Origin: Centroscyllium fabricii
Lineage: Eukaryota
Reading direction: 5' to 3'
DNA: 64,000 nt
Assembly: GCA_051313645.2 (NCBI GenBank)
Contig: JBNRSN020000028.1
Location: 15,004,001 to 15,068,000, forward strand
Below, piece after piece: positions 21,001 to 64,000 of the stretch. Each line of letters begins with the position of its first letter. Position 1 is the first letter of the stretch. Both the position numbers and the translations under genes were made by a program. The notes under the pieces were generated by a model that was given only the letters and a program-made list of their open reading frames with translations, had not been told where the DNA came from and ran no database searches.

Positions 21001-23443
21001 CAGGAGTCCGTGGTAAGGAGGGGATTGAGCGTGTTGTCAGTGTGTCTTGTATTAGCAGGAGTCCGTGGTAAGGAGGGGATTGAGTGTGCTGTCAGTGTGT
21101 CTTGTATTAGCAGGGGTCCGTGGTGAGGATGGGATTGAGGGTGTTGTCAGTGTGTCTTGTATTAGCAGGAGTCCGTGGTGAGGAGGGGATTGAGTGTGTT
21201 GTCAGTGTGTCTTGTATTAGCAGGAGTCCGTGGTGAGGAGGGGATTGAGCGTGTTGTCAGTGTGTCTTGTATTAGCAGGAGTCCGTGGTAAGGAGGCGAT
21301 TGAGTGTGCTGTCAGTGTGTCTTGTATTAGCAGGGGTCCGTGGTGAGGATGGGATTGAGGGTGTTGTCAGTGTGTCTTGTATTAGCAGGAGTCCGTGGTG
21401 AGGAGGGGATTGAGTGTGTTGTCAGTGTGTCTTGTATTAGCAGGAGTCCGTGGTGGGGAGGGGATTGAGTGTGTTGTCAATGTGTCTTGTATCAGCAGGA
21501 GTCCGTGGTGAGGAGGGGATTGAGTGTGTTGTCAGTGTGTCTTGTATTAGCAGGAGTCCGTGGTGAGATGAGGATTGAGTGTGTTGCCAGTGGGTCTTGT
21601 ATTAGCAGGGTACGTGGTGAGGAGGGGATTGAGTGTGTTGTCAGTGTGTCTTGTATCAGCAGGAGTCCGTGGTGAGGAGGGGATTGAGCGTGTTGTCAGT
21701 GTGTCTTGTATTAGCAGGAGTCCGTGGTGAGGAGGCGATTGAGCGTGTTGTCAGTGTGTCTTGTATTAGCAGGAGTCCGTGGTGAGGAGGGGATTGAGTG
21801 TGTTGTCAGTGTGTCTTGTATCAGCAGGAGTCCGTGGTGAGGAGGGGATTGAGTGTGTTGTCAGTGTGTCTTGTATCAGCAGGAGTCCGTGGCGAGGAGG
21901 GGATTGAGTGTGTTGTCAGTGTGTCTTGTATTAGCAGGAGTCCGTGGTGAGATGAGGATTGAGTGTGTTGCCAGTGGGTCTTGTATTAGCAGGGTACGTG
22001 GTGAGGAGGGGATTGAGTGTGTTGTCAGTGTGTCTTGTATCAGCAGGAGTCCGTGGTGAGGAGGGGATTGAGCGTGTTGTCAGTGTGTCTTGTATTAGCA
22101 GGAGTCCGTGGTGAGGAGGCGATTGAGCGTGTTGTCAGTGTGTCTTGTATTAGCAGGAGTCCGTGGCGAGGAGGGGATAAAGTGTGTTGTCAGTGTGTCT
22201 TGTATTAGCAGGAGTCCGTGGTTAGGAGGGGATTGAGTGTGTTGTCAGTGTGTCTTGTATTAGCAGGGGTCCGTGGTGAGGAGGGGATTGAGTGTGTTGC
22301 CAGTGGGTCTTGTATTAGCAGGGGTCCGTGGTGAGGAGGGGATTGAGCGTGTTGTCAGTGTGTCTTGTATTAGCAGGAGTCCGTGGTGAGCAGGGGATTG
22401 AGTGTGTTGTCAGTGTGTCTTGTATCAGCAGGGTCCGTGGTGAGGAGGGGATTGAGTGTGTTGTCAGTGTGTCTTGTATTAGCAGGGTCCGTGGTGAGGA
22501 GGCGATTGAGTGTGTTGTCAGTGTGTCTTGTATTAGTAGGGGTCCGTGGTGAGGAGGTGATTGAGTGTGTTGTCAGTGTGTCTTGTATTAGCAGGGTCCG
22601 TGGTGAGATGGGGATTGAGTGTGTTGTCAGTGTGTCTTCTATTAGCAGGAGTCCATGGTGAGGAGGGGATTGAGTGTGTTGCCAGTGGGTCTTGTATTAG
22701 CAGGGTCCGTGGTGAGGAGGTGATTGAGTGTGTTGCCAGTGGGTCTTGTATCAGCAGGGGTCCGTGGTGAGGAGCGGATTGAGTGTGTTGTAAGTGTGTC
22801 TTGTATTAGCAGGAGTCCGTGGTGAGGAGGGGATTGAGTGTGTTGTCAGTGTGTCTTGTATTAGCAGGGGTCCGTGGTGAGGAGGGAATTGAGGGTGTTG
22901 TCAGTGTGTCTTGTATTAGCAGGAGTCCGTGGCGAGGAGGGGATTAAGTGTGTTGTCAGTGTGTCTTGTATTAGCAGGAGTCCGTGGTTAGGAGGGGATT
23001 GAGTGTGTTGTCAGTGTGTCTTGTATTAGCAGGGGTCCGTGGTGAGTAGGGGATTGAGTGGGTTGTCAGTGTGTCTTGTATCAGCAGGGTCCGTGATGAG
23101 GAGGGGATTGAGTGTGTTGTCAGTGTGTCTTCTATTAGCAGGAGTCCGTGGTGAGGAGGAGATTGAGTGTGTTGTCAGTGTGTCTTGTATTAGCAGGGGT
23201 CCGGGTTGAGGAGGGGATTGAGTTTGTTGTCAGTGTGTCTTGTATTAGCAGGAGTCCGTTTTGAGGAGGGGATTGAGTGTGTTGTCAGTGCGTCTTGTAT
23301 TAGAGGAGTCCGTGGTGAGATGGGGATTGAGTGTGTTGTCACTGTGTCTTGTATTAGCAGGAGTCTGTGTTAAGGAGGGGATTGAGTGTGTTGCCAGTGG
23401 GTCTTGTATTAGCAGGGTCCGTGGTGAGGAGGCGATTGAGTGT
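1..23443 (+). repeat. 54/55-bp tandem satellite array, segment 1 (open at window start)
   Basis: Continuous head-to-tail copies of GGAGTCCGTGGTGAGGAGGGGATTGAGTGTGTTGTCAGTGTGTCTTGTATTAGCA. 54-bp variants (CAGGGTCC, CAGGGTAC, TAGAGGAG) and recurrent single-base variants are present; one orientation throughout. Confidence 0.99.
11221..21455 (+). repeat. Near-identical tandem duplication, period 5146 bp (11221-16309 vs 16367-21455)
   Basis: ORF track pairs are offset by 5146 (11581/16727, 13951/19097, 15591/20737). Private variants are shared (GAGTCTGTTG, CCGAGTTAAG, TGTCGTCAGT, TGTCGGGGTG); one difference seen (ORF 13476 vs 18622). Confidence 0.9.
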
Positions 23444-23996
23444 TGTCATGGGTGGACTGTCACTTTAAATGTCTAGGCTGCAGTTCATTATTGGATCATC
23501 ACCTATTGTAATGTAACACATCTGATTGGTCCATATTCTAGATATAAGCCACCTGTTAGCCCTAGGACTTTGTCGGAGTGTTATTTCTATGCTGCTGGTT
23601 TAAGAGTTCTGTTATTTCCTGTTACCTGTTATTTCTGGAGTTATATTTGTATTCGTTTCCAATTCGTTTTTGGATTCCTGGTTCCTGCCGTGTGAGATTA
23701 CCTGGTACACCGATCAAGGAGTGTCCTTTCCTGAACTGTGATTATTGGAAGTACTGCAGCACCAGACTTTTGGGCCTTGCTTTTTCAACCACCTAGGATT
23801 GGGGTTTGGACATTTGAACTCTGGCTTACCGGCTATCGGTATCTTGGACTACTGTTGCTTTATTGTGCATTGTGGATTATACTCTATGTGTTTTGATATC
23901 TTTATATGCACTGTTGTTATAATTAGGATTAAAGCACCCATTTACTATAGACTGTCTCCAGTGTTCTGCTATTGGGTTCGTAACCGAACCATTACA
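23444..23996 (+). repeat. 5' LTR (553 bp)
   Basis: TGTCATGG...CCATTACA imperfect terminal inverted repeat. Repeated at +5077 with no mismatch found by eye; ORF-track translations of both LTRs are identical. Confidence 0.97.
23525..23582 (+). promoter_or_regulatory. LTR promoter: ATTGG (reverse CCAAT), TATAA and predicted transcript start / self-primer
   Basis: ATTGG 23525-23529, TATAA 23543-23547, and GTCGGAGTGTT starting 29 nt after the TATA start (23572-23582). Confidence 0.7.
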
Positions 23997-23997
23997 G

Positions 23998-24008
23998 AAC
24001 ACTCCGAC
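23998..24008 (+). promoter_or_regulatory. Primer-binding site of self-priming (Tf1-type) form
   Basis: AACACTCCGAC lies 1 nt after the LTR end. It lacks the TGG start of tRNA PBSs and is the exact reverse complement of LTR 23572-23582. Confidence 0.85.
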
Positions 24009-24013
24009 CAATC

Positions 24014-24970
24014 ATGAACCCAGCAGACACACCGGGACGTCTGGCGCGCATGGAGGAGGTCCTGACACTTCAGGGTCAGGCTTTTGGGGATTTGTTCTCT
24101 AAAATAGAACGGCTAACCTCTGACATGAGGGCGTTCGCTGTAGCTAACCCAGCAGGGATTTCTTCCACACCGGAACCTGTTTCAACAGCTGAATCAGTTT
24201 CCCTGCCTCTACTTCAGAGCTTCACACCCGAGCCCCGGGTTGGAGTACCAGAGCGTTATGCTGGTGAACCAGAACAGTGCGACCCCTTCATTACGAACTG
24301 TTCTATTTTGTTTTCCCTACAACCGCGCACCTTTGCCAGCGAGAAGGCAAGAGTAGCATTTATGATCAACCATCTCTCGGGGAGAGCTAGACTCTGGGGT
24401 ACTGCCGAGTGGGAGAGAGATACTCCGGCATGCAGTTCTTTCAGAACATTTTCTGAGGAGTTGAGAAGAGTTTTTGGCAGGGTAGCCTTTGAGGTGGAGA
24501 CGGCTGAGGGCCTTATGAGTATGAACCAGGGAAATCAGACGGTGGTGGACTATGCCATTGATTTTCGGATCAAGGCTCGTCGGAGCAGTTGGAACATGGC
24601 TGCCAAGTGTGAGGTTTTCCTGCATGGATTGGCGGGATACGTCAAGGATGAATTAGTATCACATAATCTCCCTTCTACTTTGGATGAGATCATCAGTCTG
24701 GTTACTAGGATCGATCTAAGGATCCAGGCACGACAGCGTGAGAGAGGATTGGGAGAGACGGGTCATCATCCTGGTAAACGGGTTCAGGAGAGATTCGTGG
24801 CGCCCAGAGATTCGGCCACGTCAGGGATTCCCGAACCCATGCAGTTAGGCTGCACAGGCATTTCGCCATTAGAACACAGTCGGCGCCGCAGGAGGGGTTT
24901 ATGCCTATACTGTGGTCAGGCCGGCCATTTTGTCGTAGGATGCCCGGTAAAAGACCAGACTCACCAGTAG
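24014..24970 (+). CDS. gag: Gag (sushi/PEG10-like capsid with CCHC zinc knuckle), 318 aa
   Basis: Open ORF with [36 protein letters not shown] and [14 protein letters not shown] (CX2CX4HX4C). Confidence 0.95.
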
Positions 24971-27900
24971 AGGGAGTCGTACTGGTGAGCCGAACTCCGA
25001 TTAGACTCTCTTCTAATTCACGGCCTTTGTGCCAGGCTCGACTTCTTCTGCCGTCAGGATCTCGGAAGTTTGCCATATTTATCGACTCGGGGGCAGATGT
25101 TAATATCATTGATAAGGACCTGGTTACACAGTTGGGGATCGACCGGTGTCCACTGCCGCAACCTGTTGCTGCCAACGCTCTTGATGGCCACCTTCTGGGA
25201 ACAGTGACTCATCAGACGTCGCCCATTCACTTATTGTTTTCAGGGAATCATCATGAAAGCATTCGGTTCCATATCCTGGATTCGCCTCAGCTTCCTCTTA
25301 TTCTGGGACACGCATGGCTTCGTCGTCACAATCCCCACATTGACTGGAAAACGGGAGCCATTTTGGGTTGGAGTCATTCCTGTCACCAAGTCTGCTTAAA
25401 ACAAGCCACTGGAGGTCGTCAGTCGGTCACACCTCTTCCCAGTTCTGATCTCTCTGCGGTTCCTACCGAGTATCATGATTTCAGGGAGGTATTTAGTAAG
25501 GCTAGAGCCACTTCGCTACCTCCACATCGCCCATACGATTGTGCTATTGATTTATTACCAGGCTCCTCTCCACCCAGGGGGCGCCTGTATTCACTATCGG
25601 CACCTGAGAGGAGGGCCATGGAGGTCTATATCGAGGACTCAATATCTGCTGGGATCATCCGTTCTTCCTCTTCTCCAGCAGGGGCAGGATTCTTCTTCGT
25701 TGGCAAGAAGGACGGTTCGCTCCGGCCGTGTATCGATTATAGAGGACTTAATGATATCACTATCAAGAATCGGTATCCTCTGCCTCTTATCTCGTCAGCA
25801 TTTGAATTAATTCAGGGAGCTACCATCTTTTCTAAATTGGATCTGCGCAACGCGTACCATCTGGTCCGGATAAGAGAGGGCGATGAGTGGAAAACCGCTT
25901 TCAACACTCCGTCTGGCCATTACGAATATCTAGTTATGCCGTTCGGGTTAACCAACGCCCCGGCGGTATTTCAAGCCCTGGTCAACGACGTTCTTCGGGA
26001 CATGCTGAATATTTTTGTTTTTGTGTACATGGACGATATTCTGATATTTTCAAAGACTCAGGAGGAACATGTGCATCACGTACAGACGGTTTTGCAAAGG
26101 CTTCTAGAAAACTCTTTATTTGTAAAAGCCGAGAAATGTGAGTTTCATGTGACCACCGTTTCATTCCTGGGCTATATCATCGCGCAGGGGAGCGTGCGAA
26201 TGGACCCGGAGAAGGTGACAGCCGTTACGTCTTGGCCTAGTCCGGAGAATCGCAAGCAATTACAACGGTTCTTGGGTTTCGCTAACTTTTACCGAAGAAT
26301 TATTCGGGGCTATAGCACGGTAGCGGCACCATTATCGGCGCTTACATCTTCTAAGGTGCCATTCAGATGGTCTATCGCTGCTGAGGAGTCGTTTAAGGAA
26401 CTCAGGTCCCGCTTTACTTCGGCTCCCATTCTGCAGGTGCCTGACCCGGATCAACAATTTGTAGTAGAGGTGGATGCATCGGATGTGGGAGTTGGAGCCA
26501 TCTTGTCGCAGAAGTCAGTTTCGGACCAGAAGATCCATCCATGTGCCTTCTTCTCCAAGCGTCTTTCACCAGCAGAAATGAATTATGATATCGGGGACAG
26601 AGAATTGCTGGCGGTCAAGATGGCCTTAGAGGAGTGGCGCCACTGGCTGGAGGGGACCAAGCTGCCATTTCTTGTGTGGACGGATCACAAAAATTTGGAG
26701 TATATACGTACGGCCAAAAGGCTAAATTCACGTCAGGCTAGGTGGTCTCTTTTTTTTACGCGATTCCACTTCACCCTCTCCTACAGGCCTGGCTCCCGCA
26801 ACATCAAACCCGATGCTCTATCGCGCCTATTTACGAGAGAGGAGGGTTCCGCCCCAGGGCCAGACCTCATTTTGCCAGCCTCCTGCCGTATTGCTGCGGT
26901 TACATGGGAGATCGAGGAGAGGGTAAGAGCAGCTGCGGGGGAGCAGGGCGGGCCCAGCGGTTGTCCTCCCGACCGTTTGTTTGTGCCTAAGAACATTCGA
27001 TCGGATGTCCTTCAGTGGGCTCATGCGTCCAAGCTGTCCTGCCATCCTGGGGCACTCAGGACCAAGGAGGTGATTTTGCGAAGGTTCTGGTGGGACACGC
27101 TAGAGGAGGATACTCGGAATTTCGTCAATGCCTGTCCGATTTGCAACCAGCACAAGTCTTCTCGGCGGGCACCTGCTGGCCTGCTTCAACCATTGCCTAT
27201 ACCCCATCGGCCTTGGTCTCACATAGCCCTGGATTTTGTCACAGGACTACCCTCATCCAAGGGACTGACCACGGTGCTAACGGTGGTGGACAGGTTTAGC
27301 AAGATGGCACATTTTATACCCTTGGCTAAGCTGCCCTCTGCTAAAGAAACTGCAGAGCTCATGTTGCAGCACGTGTTTCGGCTTCATGGGCTTCCGGTGG
27401 ATGTGGTGTCTGATCGAGGTCCCCAATTTACTTCGATATTTTGGAGGGAATTCTGCAGTCTCATCGGGGCCAAGGTCAGTCTGTCGTCGGGATTCCATCC
27501 CCAGTCTAATGGACAATCGGAGAGGATGAATCAGGAGATGGAGAAGGCACTTCGGTGCATGATCTCCAAAAATCCCTCTTCCTGGTCCACATTACTATTG
27601 TGGGTGGAGTATGCGCACAACACGCTGACTAGTTCCGCTACAGGACTTTCGCCCTTTCAGTGCGCATATGGGTTCCAGCCTCCATTGTTTCCGGACCTAG
27701 AGAAGGAGGTATCTTGTCCGTCCGTCCAGGACTTCATCCAACGATGCCACAGGACATGGGAACAAGCGCGGATGTCGCTGCTTCGCTCGGCGGATCGATA
27801 CTCGGCTTCGGCCAACCGTCGTCGTTCTACTGCTCCGGAGTATCGGGTCGGGCAGAAGGTTTGGCTCTCCACAAAGGATCTGCCTCTCCAAGTGGAGTCC

Positions 27901-28443
27901 AAAAAACTCGCTCCCAGATTTATCGGACCGTTCGTGGTTGAAAGGATCATTAACCCCGCTGCGGTACGACTCAAGCTCCCCAAGTCCATGAGGGTTCATC
28001 CCACTTTCCACGTATCACGTATAAAGCCTGCTCAGGAGAGTGCCTTAGTACCCGTTTCCGCACCCCCTCCACCTCCTCGTATGCTCGACGGTGGATTAGT
28101 GTACACGGTCCGTCGTTTGCTTGACTCCCGTCACCGAGGAAAGGGACTTCAGTACCTAGTGGACTGGGAAGGGTATGGTCCTGAGGAGAGGTCCTGGGTC
28201 CCTGCTCGGAATATCATGGATCCCAAACTTATTTCCGACTTTCGCAAACAGCACCCTGGTCAACCGAGAAAGGGGAGGGCGATTCCTAGGAGACCTGGAC
28301 AGGTTTTCGACCCCATTTTGAGTCAGGTGGACCTGGACGATAGGGTGGCATCTGATGACGAGGGCCCTGAAATAATGGGGCAGGATGATTCTGTTTCACC
28401 AGATGAGGAGATGGACATTGACAAGAGACCCGAAAATTGTTAG
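24901..28443 (+). CDS. pol: Pol polyprotein: aspartic protease, RT, RNase H, integrase, chromodomain (probably made as a Gag-Pol fusion from ~24950)
   Basis: Uninterrupted 1180-aa frame: FIDSGAD (D at 25084), MPFGL, YMDD (26026-26037), [22 protein letters not shown] (H..CH..CPIC), [39 protein letters not shown]...[15 protein letters not shown]. Confidence 0.97.
24946..24998 (+). promoter_or_regulatory. Predicted -1 ribosomal frameshift signal (slippery site plus H-type pseudoknot)
   Basis: pol is in the -1 frame relative to gag. G GTA AAA at 24946-24952; stem 1 CTCACCAGTA (24960-24969)/TACTGGTGAG (24980-24989); stem 2 GGAGT (24973-24977)/ACTCC (24994-24998). Confidence 0.75.
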
Positions 28444-28507: not shown

Positions 28508-28517
28508 AAGGGGGGGG
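28508..28517 (+). promoter_or_regulatory. Polypurine tract (plus-strand primer)
   Basis: AAGGGGGGGG ends 3 nt before the 3' LTR and is preceded by a GGGACGTC/GGCGTCCC hairpin (~28486-28505). Confidence 0.9.
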
Positions 28518-28520
28518 TTC

Positions 28521-29073
28521 TGTCATGGGTGGACTGTCACTTTAAATGTCTAGGCTGCAGTTCATTATTGGATCATCACCTATTGTAATGTAACACATCT
28601 GATTGGTCCATATTCTAGATATAAGCCACCTGTTAGCCCTAGGACTTTGTCGGAGTGTTATTTCTATGCTGCTGGTTTAAGAGTTCTGTTATTTCCTGTT
28701 ACCTGTTATTTCTGGAGTTATATTTGTATTCGTTTCCAATTCGTTTTTGGATTCCTGGTTCCTGCCGTGTGAGATTACCTGGTACACCGATCAAGGAGTG
28801 TCCTTTCCTGAACTGTGATTATTGGAAGTACTGCAGCACCAGACTTTTGGGCCTTGCTTTTTCAACCACCTAGGATTGGGGTTTGGACATTTGAACTCTG
28901 GCTTACCGGCTATCGGTATCTTGGACTACTGTTGCTTTATTGTGCATTGTGGATTATACTCTATGTGTTTTGATATCTTTATATGCACTGTTGTTATAAT
29001 TAGGATTAAAGCACCCATTTACTATAGACTGTCTCCAGTGTTCTGCTATTGGGTTCGTAACCGAACCATTACA
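28521..29073 (+). repeat. 3' LTR (553 bp)
   Basis: Direct repeat of 23444-23996. Candidate polyA signal ATTAAA at 29005-29010; followed by the TSD AGTGT. Confidence 0.97.
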
Positions 29074-32000
29074 AGTGTGTTGTCAGTGTGTCTTGTATCA
29101 GCAGGTGTCCGTGGTGAGGAAGGGATTGAGTTTGTTGCCAGTGTGCCTTGTATCAGCAGGAGTCCGTGGTGAGGAGGGGATTGAGTGTGTTGTCAGTGTG
29201 TCTTGTATTAGCAGGAGTCCGTGGTGAGATGAGGATTGAGTGTGTTGCCAGTGTGTCTTGTATTAGCAGGGTACGTGGTGAGGAGGGGATTGAGTGTGTT
29301 GTCAGTGTGCCTTGTATCAGCAGGAGTCCGTGGTGAGGAGGGGATTGAGCGTGTTGTCAGTGTGTCTTGTATTAGCAGGAGTCAGTGTTGAGGAGGGGAT
29401 TGAGTTTGTTGCCAGTGTGTCTTGTATCAGCAGGAGTCCGTGGTGAGGAGGGGATTGAGTGTGTTGTCAGTGTGTCTTGTATTAGCAGGAGTCCGTGGTG
29501 AGATGAGGATTGAGTGTGTTGCCAGTGGGTCTTGTATTAGCAGGGTACGTGGTGAGGAGGCGATTGAGTGTGTTGGCAGTGTGCCTTGTATCAGCAGGTG
29601 TCCGTGGTGAGGAGGGGATTGAGCGTGTTGTCAGTGTGTCTTGTATTAGCAGGAGTCCGTGGTGAGGAGGGGATTGAGCGTGTTGTCAGTGTGTCTTGTA
29701 TTAGCAGGAGTCCGTGGTAAGGAGGGGATTGAGTGTGCTGTCAGTGTGTCTTGTATTAGCAGGGGTCCGTGGTGAGGAGGGGATTGAGGGTGTTGTCAGT
29801 GTGTCTTATATTAGCAGGAGTCCGTGGTGAGGAGGGGATTGAGTGTGTTGTCAGTGTGTCTTGTATTAGCAGGAGTCCGTGGTGAGGAGGAGATTGAGTG
29901 TGTTGTCAGTGTGTCTTGTATTAGCAGGGGTCCGTGTTGAGGAGGGGATTGAGTTTGTTGTCAGTGTGTCCTGTATTAGCAGGAGTCCGTGTTGAGGAGG
30001 GGATTGAGTGTGTTGTCAGTGTGTCTTGTATTAGAGGAGTCCGTGGTGAGATGGGGATTGAGTGTGTTGTCACTGTGACTTGTATTAGCAGGAGTCCGTG
30101 TTAAGGAGGGGATTGAGTGTGTTGCCAGTGGGTCTTGTATTAGCAGGATCCGTGGTGAGGAGGGGATTGAGTGTGTGGTCAGTGTGTCTTGTATCAACAG
30201 GTGTCCGTGGTGAGGAAGGGATTGAGTGTGTTGTCAGTGTGTCTTGTATCAGCAGGAGTCCGTGGTGAGGAGGGGATTGAGTGTGTTGTCAGTGTGTCTT
30301 GTATTAGCAGGAGTCCGTGGTGAGATGAGGATTGAGTGTGTTGCCAGTGGGTCTTGTATTAGCAGGGTACGTGGTGAGGAGGGGATTGAGTGTGTTGTCA
30401 GTGTGTCTTGTATTAGCAGGAGTCCGTGGTTAGGAGGGGATTGAGTGTGTTGTCAGTGTGTCTTTTATTAGCAGGGGTCCGTGGTGAGGAGGGGATTGAG
30501 TGTGTTGTCAGTGTGTCTTGTATCAGCAGGGTCCGTGGTGAGGAGGGGATTGACTGTGTTGTCAGTGTGTCTTGTATTAGCAGAAGTCCGTGGTGAGGAG
30601 GAGATTGAGTGTGTTGTCAGTGTGTCTTGTATTAGCAGGGGTCCGTGTTGAGGAGGCGATTGAGTTTGTTGTCAGCGTGTCTTGTATTAGCCGGAGTCCG
30701 TGTTGAGGAGAGGATTGAGTGTGTTGTCAGTGTGTCTTGTATTAGAGGAGTCCGTGGTGAGATGGGGATTGAGTGTGTTGTCACTGTGTCTTGTATTAGC
30801 AGGAGTCCGTGTTAAGGAGGAAATTGAGTGTGTTGCCAGTGGATCTTGTATTAGCAGGCTCCGTGGTGAGGAGGGGATTGAGTGTGTTGTCAGTGTGTCT
30901 TGTATCAGCAGGTGTCCGTGGTGAGGAAGGGATTGAGTGTGTTGTCAGTGTGGCTTGTAGTAGCAGGAGTCCGTGGTGAGGAGGGGATTGAGCGTGTTGT
31001 CAGTGTGTCTTGTATTAGCAGGAGTCCGTGTTGAGGGGATTGAGTTTGTTGCCAGTGTGTCTTGTATCAGCAGGAGTCCGTGGTGAGGAGGGGATTGACT
31101 GTGTTGTCAGTGTGTCTTGTATTAGCAGGAGTCCGTGGTGAGATGAGGATTGAATGTGTTTCCAGTGGGTCTTGTACTAGCAGGGTACGTGGTGAGGAGG
31201 GGATTGAGTGTGTTGTCAGTGTGTCTTGTATCAGCAGGAGTCCGTGGTGAGGAGGGGATTGAGCGTGTTGTCAGTGTGTCTTGTATTAGCAGGAGTCCGT
31301 GGTGAGGAGGGGATTGAGCGTGTTGTCAGTGTGTCTTGTATTAGCAGGAGTCCGTGGTAAGGAGGGGATTGAGTGTGCTGTCAGTGTGTCTTGTATTAGC
31401 AGGGGTCCGTGGTGATGATGGGATTGAGGGTGTTGTCAGTGTGCCTTGTATTAGCAGGAGTCCGTGGTGAGGAGGGGATTGAGTGTGTTGTCAGTGTGTC
31501 TTGTATTAGCAGGAGTCCGTGGTGAGGAGGAGATTCAGTGTGTTGTCAGTGTGTCTTGAATTAGCAGGGGTCCGTGTTGAGGAGGGGATTGAGTTTGTTG
31601 TCAGTGTGTCTTGTATTAGCAGGAGTCCGTGTTGAGGAGGGGATTGAGTGTGTTGTCAGTGTGTCTTGTATTAGAGGAGTCCATGGTGAGATGGGGATTG
31701 AGTGTGTTGTCACTGTGTCTTGTATTAGCAGGAGTCCGTGTTAAGGAGGGGATTGAGTGTGTTGCCAGTGGGTCTTGTATTAGCAGGGTCCGTGGTGGGG
31801 AGGGGATTGAGTGTGTTGTCAGTGTGTCTTGTATCAGCAGGTGTCCGTGGTGAGGAAGGGATTGAGTGTGTTGTCAGTGTGTCTTGTAGTAGCAGGAGTC
31901 CGTGGTGAGGAGGGGATTGAGCGTGTTGTCAGTGTGTCTTGTATTAGCAGGAGTCCGTGTTGAGGAGGGGATTGAGTTTGTTGCCAATGTGTCTTGTTTC

Positions 32001-58617: not shown

Positions 58618-59067
58618 CGCCTCGAGGGTACAATTAAAATCTCCCCCGAGGATGATGCACTCGCCGCCGTCGACAGAGCTCAGAAGAGCGGACACTTCTT
58701 CAAAGAAGCGCACTTGCTGCGCACCGATCTGAGGGGCATACACGTTCACAAGATGGAGCGGCACGCCCCCGTGATGAACAGTGACCTGGAGCAAGCGGCC
58801 CGGCACGTGCTCCTTGACCCTCAATATCTCCGGCTGAAAATGTGGGGACAGCAAGATAGCCACCCCGCTGGACATGTTGGAGAGGTGACTCATGCTGACC
58901 CCTCCTTGCCACTCCAGGAGCCACGTGGCCTCGTCTCCCGGAACGGTGTGGGTTTCTTGCAGGAAGCACACCGCATACTTCCCGTCCCGAAGGACCGAGA
59001 ATTTGTTATATCTACTGTATGCCTCCCTGCTGCCGTTGATGTTAAGGCTAGCTATGGTTATCTTCAT
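58618..59067 (-). pseudogene. Tx1 ORF2 N-terminal apurinic-like endonuclease fragment, truncated
   Basis: MKITIASLNING, FLQETH, SSGVAILLS, LVNVYAP, ILGGDFNCTLEA, then runs straight into satellite; no RT domain. Confidence 0.92.
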
Positions 59068-59092
59068 ATCAGCAGTCTAATACTAATTTTTC

Positions 59093-61276
59093 CTATCGGG
59101 GAGAAGGAGCGCAATCCTTGGATATACGCTCCTTCTTCCGCAGCCCATTGAGGAACTTCTTGAGCCGGCGCAGCTCGAGGTCATTATCGCCCCTGTCCGC
59201 GGCCAAGGTTTTAATGGCGACGCGGACAGATAAAATGAGCGGCGCCAGCTCCGACCACCTTTCGATGGCCTGACGGACTAGTTTTTGGTGACCCAGGCGC
59301 ACGGCCACAAATTTCCGGAGCGCCGCCACGGGGATGAGGGGAGACTCGGCGGGGGGCTCGGGGCCGTCCACCACCTCATCGGTGATGAACTCCAGATCAT
59401 CGTCCGCGCCCGGCTCCGAGTCCTCGTCCTCCTCCGGAAGGCCACCACCGGCGTCCGATCCATCAGCCGCGCATAACGCGACTAACGGCTCGGCCGCACC
59501 GTCTGACCCTACCTCTGTCTCGATCCCACCCCCAGGATCGGTAGCAGAGGAGTCCTCCCTGGGCTCCACCAGGGGTGCCGGGCCAGAGGGGGGCAGCAGT
59601 TCGGGGCTCCCCTCCTCCTCAAGCGCCGGAGAGCACGGAGAGACGGGGATGTATTCATATATTATCTTCTCCTGTGCGTCCGACGCCGATGTTGAGGGAG
59701 GGGTGAAGGAGCCGTCACCTTCCCCGCCACCAACCACTGACCCAGCTTGTAGGGTATCCTGGCTTAGACTCTCGACCATATCGAGCAGCTCCTGGACAAT
59801 ACCGTTTTTGTTTTGGGCGAGGTCTATCCCTTCGACCTAGTCCACCCCTGTCTCCAGGACGCCCGACCCGTCGAGGTAAATTTGTTCCCCTTGAGGGTTT
59901 TGGTATTGCAGAGGTTGTTCCGCGTCCCCCCCCTCGGGCAGGGCCATATCCCCATCGCCGGGAGACACGGGCGGGGCAATCTCATCCGCCCCACTCTCCC
60001 GCAAGACAGGCGACCCCCGCCCGTCTTTTACAACTATAGTGATTTTGGGAGGGGGCGCGGAGCACGACGACTCCGCTCCCTCGGGGGGACCGTCCTCATG
60101 ATCACGGCCCCCCTGCTGACCCTGGGAGTCGAAGTCCTGCTTCCTTTTTATCCCGAAGGGCCACTGAGCGGGGGTGACCTCCATTTCTTCTAAGGCCACC
60201 CCCTCCTCTGTTCCCCCCGGCTGAATAGTTGTTTCGGGCCCCTTTTATCCGAGCCCTGCCGCAGTTGTTAGGTTTTCTGCCATGGCAGTGGCGGCCGCAG
60301 GCTCAGACTCGGGGCCCTCCTTGCTCCCATATTGATCCACCAGACCCTTGATGTAATCGGGAGTCATGGCTGGCAGGTCCTGCTGTTGGGCATCCCCTTC
60401 TAGGGGACCCTCCCTCCTTTGTTTTCTTTTGTTCCGCGCCTTCTTTCTGGCCGGACATGTTTCCTCCCCCCCGCCGGAGGCCGTGATGACATTGGCCTCC
60501 GACGACTCCCGCGCACCGGACTTCCAAGACACGCGGCCTGACTCTGGGGGATGAGCGGCGCCGGTGCCATTTTTGGCCGCACTATTATTGGCGGCCTTGG
60601 AGGCGGGGCAGTTCCTCCTGATATGCCACACCTCCTTACATGCATGGCACCGCACGTTGTCCGTCGTCCAGAAGACGCAGTAGGCGGTCCCCTGGTACAG
60701 CACGGGGAACGCGCCATCAGTGTCCTCCTCCCGCGCCAGCTGCATAAAATCTGACGCCGCAAGGAGAAGACGTGGCGAAGGCTGGCCTCCCGGAACCCGA
60801 GCGGGATGGGCGTTATCCCCGATCTCACCTCCCCAAGTTTGCGTAGGTGGGGGAGGAGGAGCTCACCGGGAATATAGGGCGGGATGTTTGAGAGGACCAC
60901 CCTCTGCCCGGCGGCCTCAAGAGGGTCCACCGACAGGAAGGTGCCGCCCACGGTGAGCCCTTGTTCGATGGCCAGGGCCGCCGCCCGCTCAGATTTCAGG
61001 AAGAACACAGCCTTCCCATACATTTTAGAGGCCGCGACGATGGCTGAGGGGCCGACCACCCCAGCCATGGCCTTGACGCATGCCTCTATTGTCATTGATG
61101 GGTGAGCGTAGCTCCGCACCCCCAGTTTCCTTGTTAGTAGCCGGAAAGGTGACGGGGCATCAGGGGCAGCCGTGGTCTTGGCAGTGGATGCCACGGTTGC
61201 GTATGTTCCCGATGTCCCCGCCACCAGCGAAGATGTTGTCGCTATGCTACCAGGTGGGGAGGGGGTTTGGAGCCAT
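59093..61276 (-). pseudogene. Tx1 ORF1 (gag-like, zinc knuckle), disrupted
   Basis: Track pieces 60400-61224, 60245-60745, 59837-60199 and 59093-59779 join via a 1-nt frameshift at ~60746-60749 and in-frame stops at 60245-60247 and 59837-59839. Likely ATG at 61276 is out of frame across a G-run. CHACKEVWHIRRNC knuckle present. Confidence 0.85.
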
Positions 61277-61494
61277 GCTCACCCCAAGTCACAGGCCTTA
61301 GAGTTTAAAATGGCCTCAGATTGTTTTATTTGATTTTCCTCTTGAGCAGAGGGGGGGGGGTGATTAGATAAAGACACACCCCTCCCCTTGATGACAGAAG
61401 GGGGCTTAGGGGCCTTCTCCCCTCTACTCAATTGGCAATAGAAAAAATGAAAGGAAAGGAAATAATTGAGGCGCCTCTAGGGAAAGAGGCAGAC

Positions 61495-61518
61495 AGAGAG
61501 AGAGAGAGAGAGAGAGAG
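61495..61518 (+). repeat. (AG)12 microsatellite within the putative Tx1 5' UTR
   Basis: Direct read of the sequence. Confidence 0.95.
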
Positions 61519-62120
61519 GGGTGGTGGGAAGGAGGGAGACCACAAGGGTTGGGTCCCCACTCAGGATGGATGGGTGGGTGGGTGTTGACTAAAGCAGGGT
61601 GCACTCTGCGATGGAAAAAGAAACCCCGGATGATGGTCTTCTGGTGGGGGGAGAAGATGTCTTCACCTGGGATAGCTGGAGATGCCCAGGCTCAGTCCAC
61701 ACCAGGTCTTTAAATATGTTCGATTAATCAAAGACTTCACCTAGGCAGCTCCAGCTGTCCCAGGCCAGGCAATAGAAGGGGTGTTTTTAGTGGTGTGCGT
61801 GGCCTAGTTTGAATAGAAACCACACACAGACACACACACCCCTTGATGGTCCGGCCTTCTGGTCTTCTTTTCACCCCCTCCCACAAATAAACACAGTCTT
61901 TGAGAGAGTGCACCTAATGAAACAACACCCACCTTCAGATGGTTATTCTCCCTCCTTCCGAGCAGTTGGTGATGATGATATCTTCCTCACCCCTCTCTCC
62001 CTCTCCCGAAATGGAGGCCAATCTGGAAGGCAATGATGGGAAGGCCTCAATGTTGTTGTTTTTGCCGGATGCTTGGCCTCCCTTTCCTCTCCTCCGTCCT
62101 CTCTCCCGAGGCACCTCTGC

Positions 62121-62587
62121 TTTACAAAGTATTCGAAGGGATGAATCCCAGCACTGAGTTCAGCAGTAAATTTAACTCTTCTGTAACTGAGCTTCAGGTG
62201 GCAGAACGCAATGTCCAGAATGTAGGCAACCGTAGTTCTCCGAAGTCCGCTCCACAGCTAAGACTCACTCTACCCGAGTTTCCAGAAGAGAATACATCAT
62301 CTACAAGGCAGGGGAACGCCCAAACCCATTGCCTCTCCAGGAGCTCAGACAGCAACCACTCCTTCGTAGTAATGAGTAGTAAGTAGAATGATCCGGCCAC
62401 TGCCTGGTCTCAGCACCCAGCTTATAAGCCGACTAGATAGATTAGTGCTAACCAATAAGAATGCAGGTATAGAGAACGAGGAACCCACAGGTATGTGCAC
62501 AGGTAATTGAGGTATAATGAACCAAAACAGAGAACAAAACATAGAATTCCAAAATGGATTCCTTAAAGGGGAATGCCATCTGTGACA
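62121..62587 (-). mobile_element. Partial LTR of a second Ty3/Gypsy (sushi-like) family; 3' end missing, left boundary approximate
   Basis: Minus strand begins TGTCACAG at 62587 exactly at the satellite junction. It has ATTGG (62456-62452), TATAA (62426-62422) and GCCGGATCATTC starting 29 nt after the TATA, the same layout as the 23444 LTR but different sequence. Confidence 0.65.
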
Positions 62588-64000
62588 GGAGTCCGTGGTG
62601 AGATGGGGATTGAGTGTGTTGTCACTGTGACTTGTATTAGCAGGAGTCCGTGTTGAGGAGGGGATTGAGTGTGTTGCCAGTGGGTCTTGTATTAGCATGG
62701 ACCGTGGTGAGGCGGGGATTGAGTGTGTTGTCAGTGTGTCTTGTATCAGCAGGTGTCCGTGGTGAGGAAGGGATTGAGTGTGTTGTCAGTGTGTCTTGTA
62801 GTAGCAGGAGTCCGTGTTGAGGAGGGGATTGAGCGCGTTGTCAGTGTGTCTTGTATTAGCAGGAGTCCGTGTTGAGGAGGTGATTGAGTGTGTTGCCAGT
62901 GTGTCTTTTATCAGCAGGAGTCCGTGGTGAGGTGGGGATTGAGTGTGTTGTCAGTGTGTCTTGAATTAGCAGGAGTCCGTGGTGAGATTGAGATTGAGTG
63001 TGTTGCCAATGGGTCTTGTATTAGCAGGAGTCCGTGTTGAGGAGGGGATTCAGTGTGTTGCCAGTGGGTCTTGTATTAGCAGGGTCCGTGGTGAGGAGGG
63101 GATTCAGTGTGTTGTCAGTGTGTCTTGTATCAGCAGGAGTCCGTGGTGAGGAGGGGATTGAGCGTGTTGTCAGTGTGTCTTGTATTAGCAGGAGTCCGTG
63201 GTGAGGAGGGGATTGAGTGTGTTGTCAGTGTGTCTTGTATTAGCAGGAGTCCGTGGTAAGGAGGGGATTGAGTGTGCTGTCAGTGTGTCTTGTATTAGCA
63301 GGGGTCCGTGGTGAGGAGGGGATTGAGGGTGTTGTCAGTGTGTCTTGTATTAGCAGGAGTCCGTGGTGAGATGGGGATTGAGTGTTTTGTCAGTGTGTCT
63401 TGTATTAGCAGGGTCCGTGTTGAGGAGGGGATTGAGTGTGTTGTCAGTGTGTCTTGTATTAGCAGGAGTCCGTGTGGAGTAGGGGATTGTGGGTGTTGTC
63501 AGTGTGTTTTGTATAGCAGGGGTCCCTGGTGAGGAGGGGATTGAGTGTGTTGTCAGTGTGTCTTGTATTAGCAGGGTCCGTGTTGAGGAGGGGATTGAGT
63601 GTGTTGTCAGTGTGTCTTGTATTAGCAGGGGTCCGTGGTGAGGAGGAGATTCAGTGTGTTGTCAGTGTGTCTTGAATTAGCGGGGTCCATGGTGAGGAGC
63701 GGATTGAGTGTGTTGTCAGTGTGTCATGTATTTGCAGGGTCCGTGGTGAGGAGGGGATTGAGTGTGTTGTCAGTGTGTCTTTTACTAGGAGGGTCCGTGG
63801 TGAGGATGGGATTGAGTGTGTTGTCAGTGTGTCTTGAATTAGCAGGAGTCCGTGGTGAGGAGGGGATTGAGTGTGTTGTCAGTGTGTCTTGTATTAGCAG
63901 GAGTCCCTGGTGAGGAGGGGATTGAATGTGTTGTCAGTGTGTCTTGTATTAGCAGGAGTCCGTGGTGAGGAGGGGATTGAGTGTGTTGTCAGTGTGTCTT
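62588..64000 (+). repeat. 54/55-bp satellite array, segment 5 (more diverged; open at window end)
   Basis: Same monomer with a visibly higher density of substitutions and small indels. Confidence 0.97.

What the first reader, a model, noticed from the sequence alone, without database searches (positions are those of the whole stretch)
23572..24008. tRNA-independent self-priming signature in an intact vertebrate chromovirus
Seen: there is no TGG-type PBS. The 11 nt after the LTR (AACACTCCGAC, 23998-24008) are the perfect reverse complement of GTCGGAGTGTT (23572-23582), which starts 29 nt after TATAA, where a Pol II start is expected. A 6-bp hairpin GGTTCG-TAAC-CGAACC (23975-23990) sits at the U5 end. 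Established: S. pombe Tf1 primes reverse transcription with the first 11 nt of its own mRNA, and this has been proposed for the sushi group. Inference: this element uses the same mechanism and is a tractable vertebrate example with all cis signals intact.
Basis: partly seen in the sequence, partly recalled or inferred. Interest (0 to 1): 0.72.

Follow-up and report, generated by a model that had tools for sequence, protein, structure and literature searches.

The report
Self-priming sushi-type retrotransposon in a vertebrate
A young jumping gene with thousands of copies has no tRNA docking site; that site instead pairs with 11 letters at the predicted start of the element's own RNA, and related families keep the pairing with different letters, so it likely primes its own copying, a trick shown in yeast Tf1 and already proposed for this vertebrate group.

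Summary
Observation confirmed with two corrections. The element is an intact Ty3/gypsy chromovirus (identical 553-bp LTRs, 5-bp target duplication, open gag and pol). 23572-23582 is the exact complement of 23998-24008, which starts one G after the LTR end; 0 of 3000 shuffles reach 11. Across relatives the two 11-mers change together: 16 distinct pairs, 94% Watson-Crick versus 56% shuffled, 10 of 11 columns with compensatory changes, and a TATA-like box 29-31 nt upstream in 27 of 31. Inside the family (3065 exact junction copies), variants of the 11-mer almost never appear in both LTRs, unlike a control block. Start site and cleavage are untested (no RNA run listed). Self-priming is already proposed in print for the whole Tf1/sushi group, vertebrates included, and this scan noted the same signature on other DNA (e1-8041390, e1-8034992). 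Verdict: new member of a known kind, with unusually good comparative support.

The parts
23439..23443 (+). left target-site duplication AGTGT, inside a 55-bp satellite
   Evidence: same 5 nt at 29074-29078; satellite 1-58617
23444..23996 (+). 5' LTR, 553 bp, TG...CA
   Evidence: identical to 28521-29073
23543..23548 (+). TATA-like box, 29 nt before the 11-mer
   Evidence: same spacing (29-31 nt) in 27 of 31 elements
23572..23582 (+). predicted self-primer (predicted first 11 nt of the RNA)
   Evidence: complement of 23998-24008; covaries with it across families
23928..23933 (+). ATTAAA, candidate poly(A) signal (inferred; would make R long and U5 short)
   Evidence: only AATAAA/ATTAAA in the LTR
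23953..23981 (+). U5 arm predicted to pair with 24014-24039 (gag AUG and first codons)
   Evidence: minimum-energy fold with the PBS held open; covariation
23975..23990 (+).
23997..23997 (+). 1-nt spacer between LTR and PBS
   Evidence: G in 23 of 24 aligned elements
23998..24008 (+). primer-binding site, not of the tRNA (TGG) type
24014..24970 (+). gag ORF (318 aa, capsid and CCHC knuckle), only 5 nt after the PBS
24778..28443 (+). pol ORF in the -1 frame: protease, RT, RNase H, integrase, SH3, chromodomain
28508..28517 (+). polypurine tract, 3 nt before the 3' LTR
28521..29073 (+). 3' LTR
29074..29078 (+). right target-site duplication

Best explanation
This is an intact, young Ty3/gypsy chromovirus whose primer-binding site is complementary to an 11-mer 29 nt behind its TATA box, and it likely primes reverse transcription with that 11-mer, the predicted 5' end of its own RNA, as Tf1 does. 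Shown: the pairing, its covariation, its fixed register (nt 1 pairs with base 12 after the LTR) and its spacing from the TATA-like box. Inferred: transcription starts at or next to 23572; the 5' end folds onto the PBS; the element's RNase H cuts after nt 11 (by analogy with Tf1); the freed 3' end primes minus-strand DNA. Predicted: a long U5:gag-start duplex closes the loop that holds the PBS, giving a pseudoknot that would be the leader-side arm of the published 'pretzel'.
For: Exact 11-nt complement, 0 of 3000 shuffles. 30 of 35 anchored elements kept for the count give 16 distinct pairs and 12 distinct 5' 11-mers; 94.3% of cells are Watson-Crick versus 56.1% in shuffles (maximum 75.6% in 20000); 10 of 11 columns show two or more Watson-Crick types. 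The pair just outside the 5' end is broken in 16 of 16, a sharp edge as expected of an RNA end. TATA-like box 29-31 nt upstream in 27 of 31, background 2.4% of LTR positions. In the own genome all 30 of 40 fetched relatives that could be read have 8-11 of 11 matches at that position. Within the family: 21 LTR hits with a change in primer nt 5-8, only 2 of them in a both-LTR pair, versus 153 hits in a 4-nt control block 30 nt downstream, 90 of the 100 listed in pairs. U5:gag duplex: beats shuffled U5 in 23 of 24 (at most 8 of 300), 6 of 14 pairs with double changes, 0 of 500 shuffles. Literature.
Against: No RNA evidence for the start site or cleavage. The partner sites were found by searching for complementarity and rows were kept at 9 of 11 or better, so the 94% is biased upward; the TATA motif list was set after seeing the sequences; the shuffle ignores relatedness. 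The control-block excess comes mostly from one sub-lineage (6 variant types in pairs versus 1), and nt 5-8 could be constrained as promoter sequence instead. No matched double change was seen inside the family: 0 of 12 readable PBS variants and 0 of 19 readable 11-mer variants. The third duplex of the pretzel (PBS-upstream side) was not found as a conserved helix. In whole-leader folds the primer:PBS helix has only about 0.4 probability, but that method cannot form it together with the U5:gag duplex.
Confidence: 0.9

Rival explanations
1. A host tRNA fragment or other small RNA is the primer, and the LTR match is secondary.
For: The full tRNA set could not be screened: the 30 loci fetched held only tRNA-Lys and tRNA-Cys. 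Half-tRNA priming exists in copia lineages (PMC6317226).
Against: No TGG in the first 6 nt after the LTR in any of 27 distinct PBS contexts, so no CCA end can bind. The PBS drifts by single letters between close subfamilies, each time matched in cis. Best match to the 11 tRNA sequences held is 4-7 nt. No Rfam hit in 23400-24200.
Confidence: 0.03
2. The helix is real but only structural (packaging, circularisation or translation control); the primer's 3' end is made another way, for example from the 3' R copy, a second RNA molecule or an internal cut.
For: Covariation proves pairing, not cleavage. The same 11-mer is present in the 3' R region, so pairing in trans or with the 3' end is possible. 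No concerted variants inside the family.
Against: The helix sits exactly at the PBS position, its 5' edge is sharp (16 of 16 unpaired at -1) and tied to TATA spacing, its length equals Tf1's 11 nt, and no other primer site exists.
Confidence: 0.06
3. Chance complementarity.
For: None beyond the size of the search space.
Against: 0 of 3000 shuffles; covariation.
Confidence: 0.01

Closest known systems
Tf1/Tf2 of Schizosaccharomyces pombe (self-priming shown for Tf1)
   Same: Chromovirus; 11-nt 5' sequence complementary to the PBS; RNase H present; flanking U5 structure (PMC7175516 passages; PMC10085805 passages).
   Different: Tf1 has one ORF and no CCHC knuckle; this element has overlapping gag/pol in the -1 frame and a CCHC knuckle. 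Here the leader is 4-7 nt, so the leader-side duplex is made of gag codons. A conserved third duplex was not found.
Vertebrate Tf1/sushi group (sushi-ichi of Takifugu; Butler et al. 2001, known to me only through citing passages)
   Same: Self-priming and the 'pretzel' are stated as common features of the group, vertebrates included. Every named Gag homologue among the 120 listed is from a teleost fish, several from Takifugu.
   Different: Nothing shown to differ. I could not read Butler 2001, so whether it already draws the U5:gag duplex is unknown. No tree with sushi-ichi itself was built.
Retroviral U5-AUG helix (HIV-1 leader)
   Same: U5 pairs with the gag start region as part of a conformational switch (PMC3794615 passages).
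   Different: HIV-1 primes with a tRNA (established knowledge); no switch has been shown here, and homology of the two helices is not claimed.

Membership tests
Ty3/gypsy chromovirus | PR-RT-RH-IN order with C-terminal chromodomain | tested here: met
   Pfam order and Chromo PF00385 at aa 1109-1157, E 6e-12; closest solved RT is Ty3
Ty3/gypsy chromovirus | TG..CA LTRs, 5-bp target duplication, PPT | tested here: met
Tf1/sushi group | No tRNA-type PBS | tested here: met
   no TGG; internal tRNA fragments screened only against Lys and Cys
Tf1/sushi group | PBS complementary to an LTR sequence at the expected RNA start | tested here: met
Tf1/sushi group | That sequence is the actual 5' end of the RNA | not testable with these tools
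   no RNA holder listed
Tf1/sushi group | RNase H cleavage between nt 11 and 12 | not testable with these tools
   needs biochemistry
Tf1/sushi group | Pretzel: duplex between the PBS-downstream sequence and the LTR | tested here: met
   U5:gag-start duplex, 23 of 24; covariation
Tf1/sushi group | Pretzel: duplex between the PBS-upstream sequence and the LTR | tested here: inconclusive
   hairpin stable in the closest subfamilies only, no covariation; no partner just after the primer in 13 elements (best 12 of 200 shuffles)
Tf1/sushi group (non-yeast members) | gag-pol joined by -1 frameshift; CCHC in Gag | tested here: met
   frames offset -1 and CCHC motif; the slip itself is not shown
Tf1/sushi group | Monophyly with Tf1 and sushi-ichi in an RT-IN tree | not tested
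   no named reference sequences in hand; the tree holds only fetched relatives; named Gag homologues are teleost

The most novel reading that the evidence does not exclude
In vertebrate sushi-type elements the leader has shrunk to 4-7 nt, so the priming scaffold is built from the gag start codons themselves: a U5:gag-AUG duplex, kept by compensatory changes that alter Gag residues 2-4, closes a pseudoknot around the self-primer helix and acts as a switch between translating Gag and priming, like the retroviral U5-AUG helix but in a tRNA-free element.
Probability: 0.25. Interest if true: 0.62.

Novelty: new member of a known kind. Interest (0 to 1): 0.38.

Why it matters
Self-priming has been shown by experiment in yeast Tf1 and, in the papers I could read, is only proposed or 'implicated' for vertebrates. 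This family gives strong comparative support: covariation over 12 different primers and a selection signal among thousands of near-identical copies. It makes a sharp prediction (capped RNA starting at 23572, an 11-nt RNA on strong-stop DNA) that one 5'-end sequencing experiment in the host could settle. It also indicates which flanking helix is conserved (U5:gag start) and which is not (the small hairpin). It does not reveal a new mechanism.

Tried and rejected
No RNA holder listed; this says nothing on expression. DNA contigs laid on the leader cannot show a start; none of the 15 listed variant places falls in either 11-mer. Viral contigs gave no relative. Host tRNA screen covered only Lys and Cys. 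Pairing of the LTR's last 15 nt with the 50 nt after the primer: no signal in 13 elements. Templated copying of the primer into the PBS (which would give matched double changes): no case among 12 plus 19 readable variant copies; not excluded, since such variants may not replicate. Two local competitors (23818-23825 for the primer; 23960-23968 for the PBS 5' half) were not followed as conserved. Rows dropped: 10 of 40 own-genome relatives had no readable LTR/gag junction; 72 of 79 metagenome loci lacked the vertebrate-type anchor; 5 of 35 anchored rows were left out (L094 and L136 later showed 10 and 8 of 11 matches at the right place; L005, L008, L012 have only 96-423 nt upstream and no partner was found). 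Primary papers (Levin 1995; Lin and Levin 1997, 1998; Atwood-Moore 2006; Butler 2001; Esnault and Levin 2015; Wilhelm 2001) were not held.

Full report
Anatomy. The window is mostly a 55-bp satellite (1-58617). Inserted in it is a 5630-bp LTR element: identical 553-bp LTRs at 23444-23996 and 28521-29073, target duplication AGTGT, a purine tract at 28508-28517. Gag (24014-24970) has capsid and CCHC motifs; pol (24778-28443, -1 frame) has protease, RT, RNase H, integrase, SH3 and chromodomain. All named Gag homologues among the 120 listed are teleost. The family is large and young: 150 of 150 scored RT hits are 100% identical and 3065 places match the 32-nt LTR/PBS/gag junction exactly. The genome has 7.2 billion bases; the host was not identified.

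Observation. 23572-23582 is the exact complement of 23998-24008, 29 nt after TATAA at 23543. The PBS begins one G after the LTR end. 0 of 3000 shuffles of the LTR give an 11-nt match. The duplex is worth -17.6 kcal/mol.

Sister families. Degenerate RT patterns that exclude the own codons found other families; I fetched 40 of those places and 79 metagenome loci. An anchor using only the LTR end and the gag start located the PBS in 35 rows (window, 27 own-genome, 7 metagenome), and in 3 more own-genome loci with a looser anchor. Thirty rows with at least 9 of 11 matches were counted: 16 distinct pairs, 94.3% Watson-Crick cells, shuffled mean 56.1%, maximum 75.6% in 20000; ten columns carry two to four Watson-Crick types and column 10 is invariant. 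On the RT tree the change is stepwise: the window's 11-mer differs by one pair from its sister subfamily and by four from the next, and each change is matched in the PBS. The pair outside nt 1 is broken in 16 of 16. A TATA-like box lies 29-31 nt upstream in 27 of 31 rows against 2.4% background. Caveats: partners were found by complementarity, the motif list was chosen afterwards, and shuffles ignore kinship. The five rows left out are described under Tried and rejected. Two distant metagenome elements (about 50% RT identity) show a 12-nt match in the same layout.

Within the family. Changes in PBS nt 4-7 occur in 13 places, changes in primer nt 5-8 in 21 LTR places, changes in a control block at 23602-23605 in 153. 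A variant that has passed through replication sits in both LTRs: 90 of the 100 listed control hits do, against 2 of 21 primer hits. Counted as variant types in both LTRs it is 6 against 1, and one sub-lineage dominates the control, so the Fisher value overstates the case; unchanged-copy counts for these two patterns were not measured. No copy has a matched change on both sides (0 of 12 and 0 of 19 readable). This fits purifying selection on the 11-mer, but promoter function would give the same picture.

Flanking structure. The U5:gag duplex beats shuffled U5 in 23 of 24 elements (at most 8 of 300; L013 fails). On the alignment 82% of cells pair, 6 of 14 pairs show double changes, 0 of 500 shuffles reach that, slid controls give at most 2, and RNAalifold predicts the same helix unaided, 4 of 8 pairs with double changes. 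Some changes alter Gag residues 2-4. Pairing at the A and U of the AUG itself is variable. The hairpin pairs in only 49.6% of cells, no better than shuffles; terminal hairpins of -6.6 to -9.4 kcal/mol occur in the four closest elements and in L093/L095, weaker elsewhere. The primer helix and the U5:gag helix cross, so together they form a pseudoknot (inference); nested folding splits the weight about 0.4 each.

Mechanism. Shown: sequence layout, covariation, spacing. Inferred from Tf1: start at 23572, RNase H cut between nt 11 and 12, priming (PMC7175516, passages). Not tested: start site, cleavage, expression.

What is known. PMC10085805 (passages) calls self-priming a common feature of Tf1/sushi elements and describes the three-duplex pretzel, citing Butler et al. 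2001 for vertebrates. PMC6317226 (passages) says self-primers were described in the group 'from yeast and vertebrates'. PMC4600332 (passages) says shown for Tf1, 'implicated' from fungi to vertebrates. PMC2864245, PMC3601003, PMC4340606 and PMC3794615 were read as passages. The primary papers were not held, and no supplements were opened. Eight searches listed no experimental test in a vertebrate element and no U5-AUG helix in a retrotransposon; the library lacks most subscription journals, so this is weak. Earlier notes of this scan report the same signature in other genomes.

Verdict. Real, well supported, and a new member of a known kind. Confidence in self-priming 0.9; interest 0.38; the U5:gag switch reading 0.25.

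Noticed in passing
window 1-58617 and 62586-64000: 55-bp tandem satellite, about 1064 copies, with longer-period structure (329 bp); the target duplication AGTGT is part of the unit.
   Followed up: no
window about 58618-62585, minus strand: Non-LTR retrotransposon fragment in the satellite: ORF1-like frames followed by an endonuclease N-terminus (Exo_endo_phos, E 1e-7) that stops at the satellite; looks Tx1-like (label recalled) and is cut at its 3' end rather than its 5' end.
   Followed up: partly
L163-L182 (G000 copies): Single-LTR variants of the 11-mer lie in the 5' LTR in 14 copies and in the 3' LTR in 4 (1 unassigned, 1 both); an excess in the 5' LTR would fit fixation of RT errors during plus-strand transfer (inference).
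   Followed up: partly
L084, L085, L088, L137, L144, L001, L017: These lineages pair only 10 nt (nt 11 mismatched) yet keep nt 1 paired to base 12 after the LTR, so the register is fixed from the LTR end rather than by primer length.
   Followed up: partly
L024, L057, L075: Distant metagenome chromoviruses (about 50% RT identity, 7.5-7.8 kb) with a 12-nt self-complementary PBS and a long leader.
   Followed up: no
L092 and L136 flanks: Flanking repeats resemble cartilaginous-fish SINE tails (recalled, untested), a hint on the host group.
   Followed up: no
G000:C1:91049692-91057642: Three junction matches 2879 bp apart, suggesting a tandem array of partial elements.
   Followed up: no
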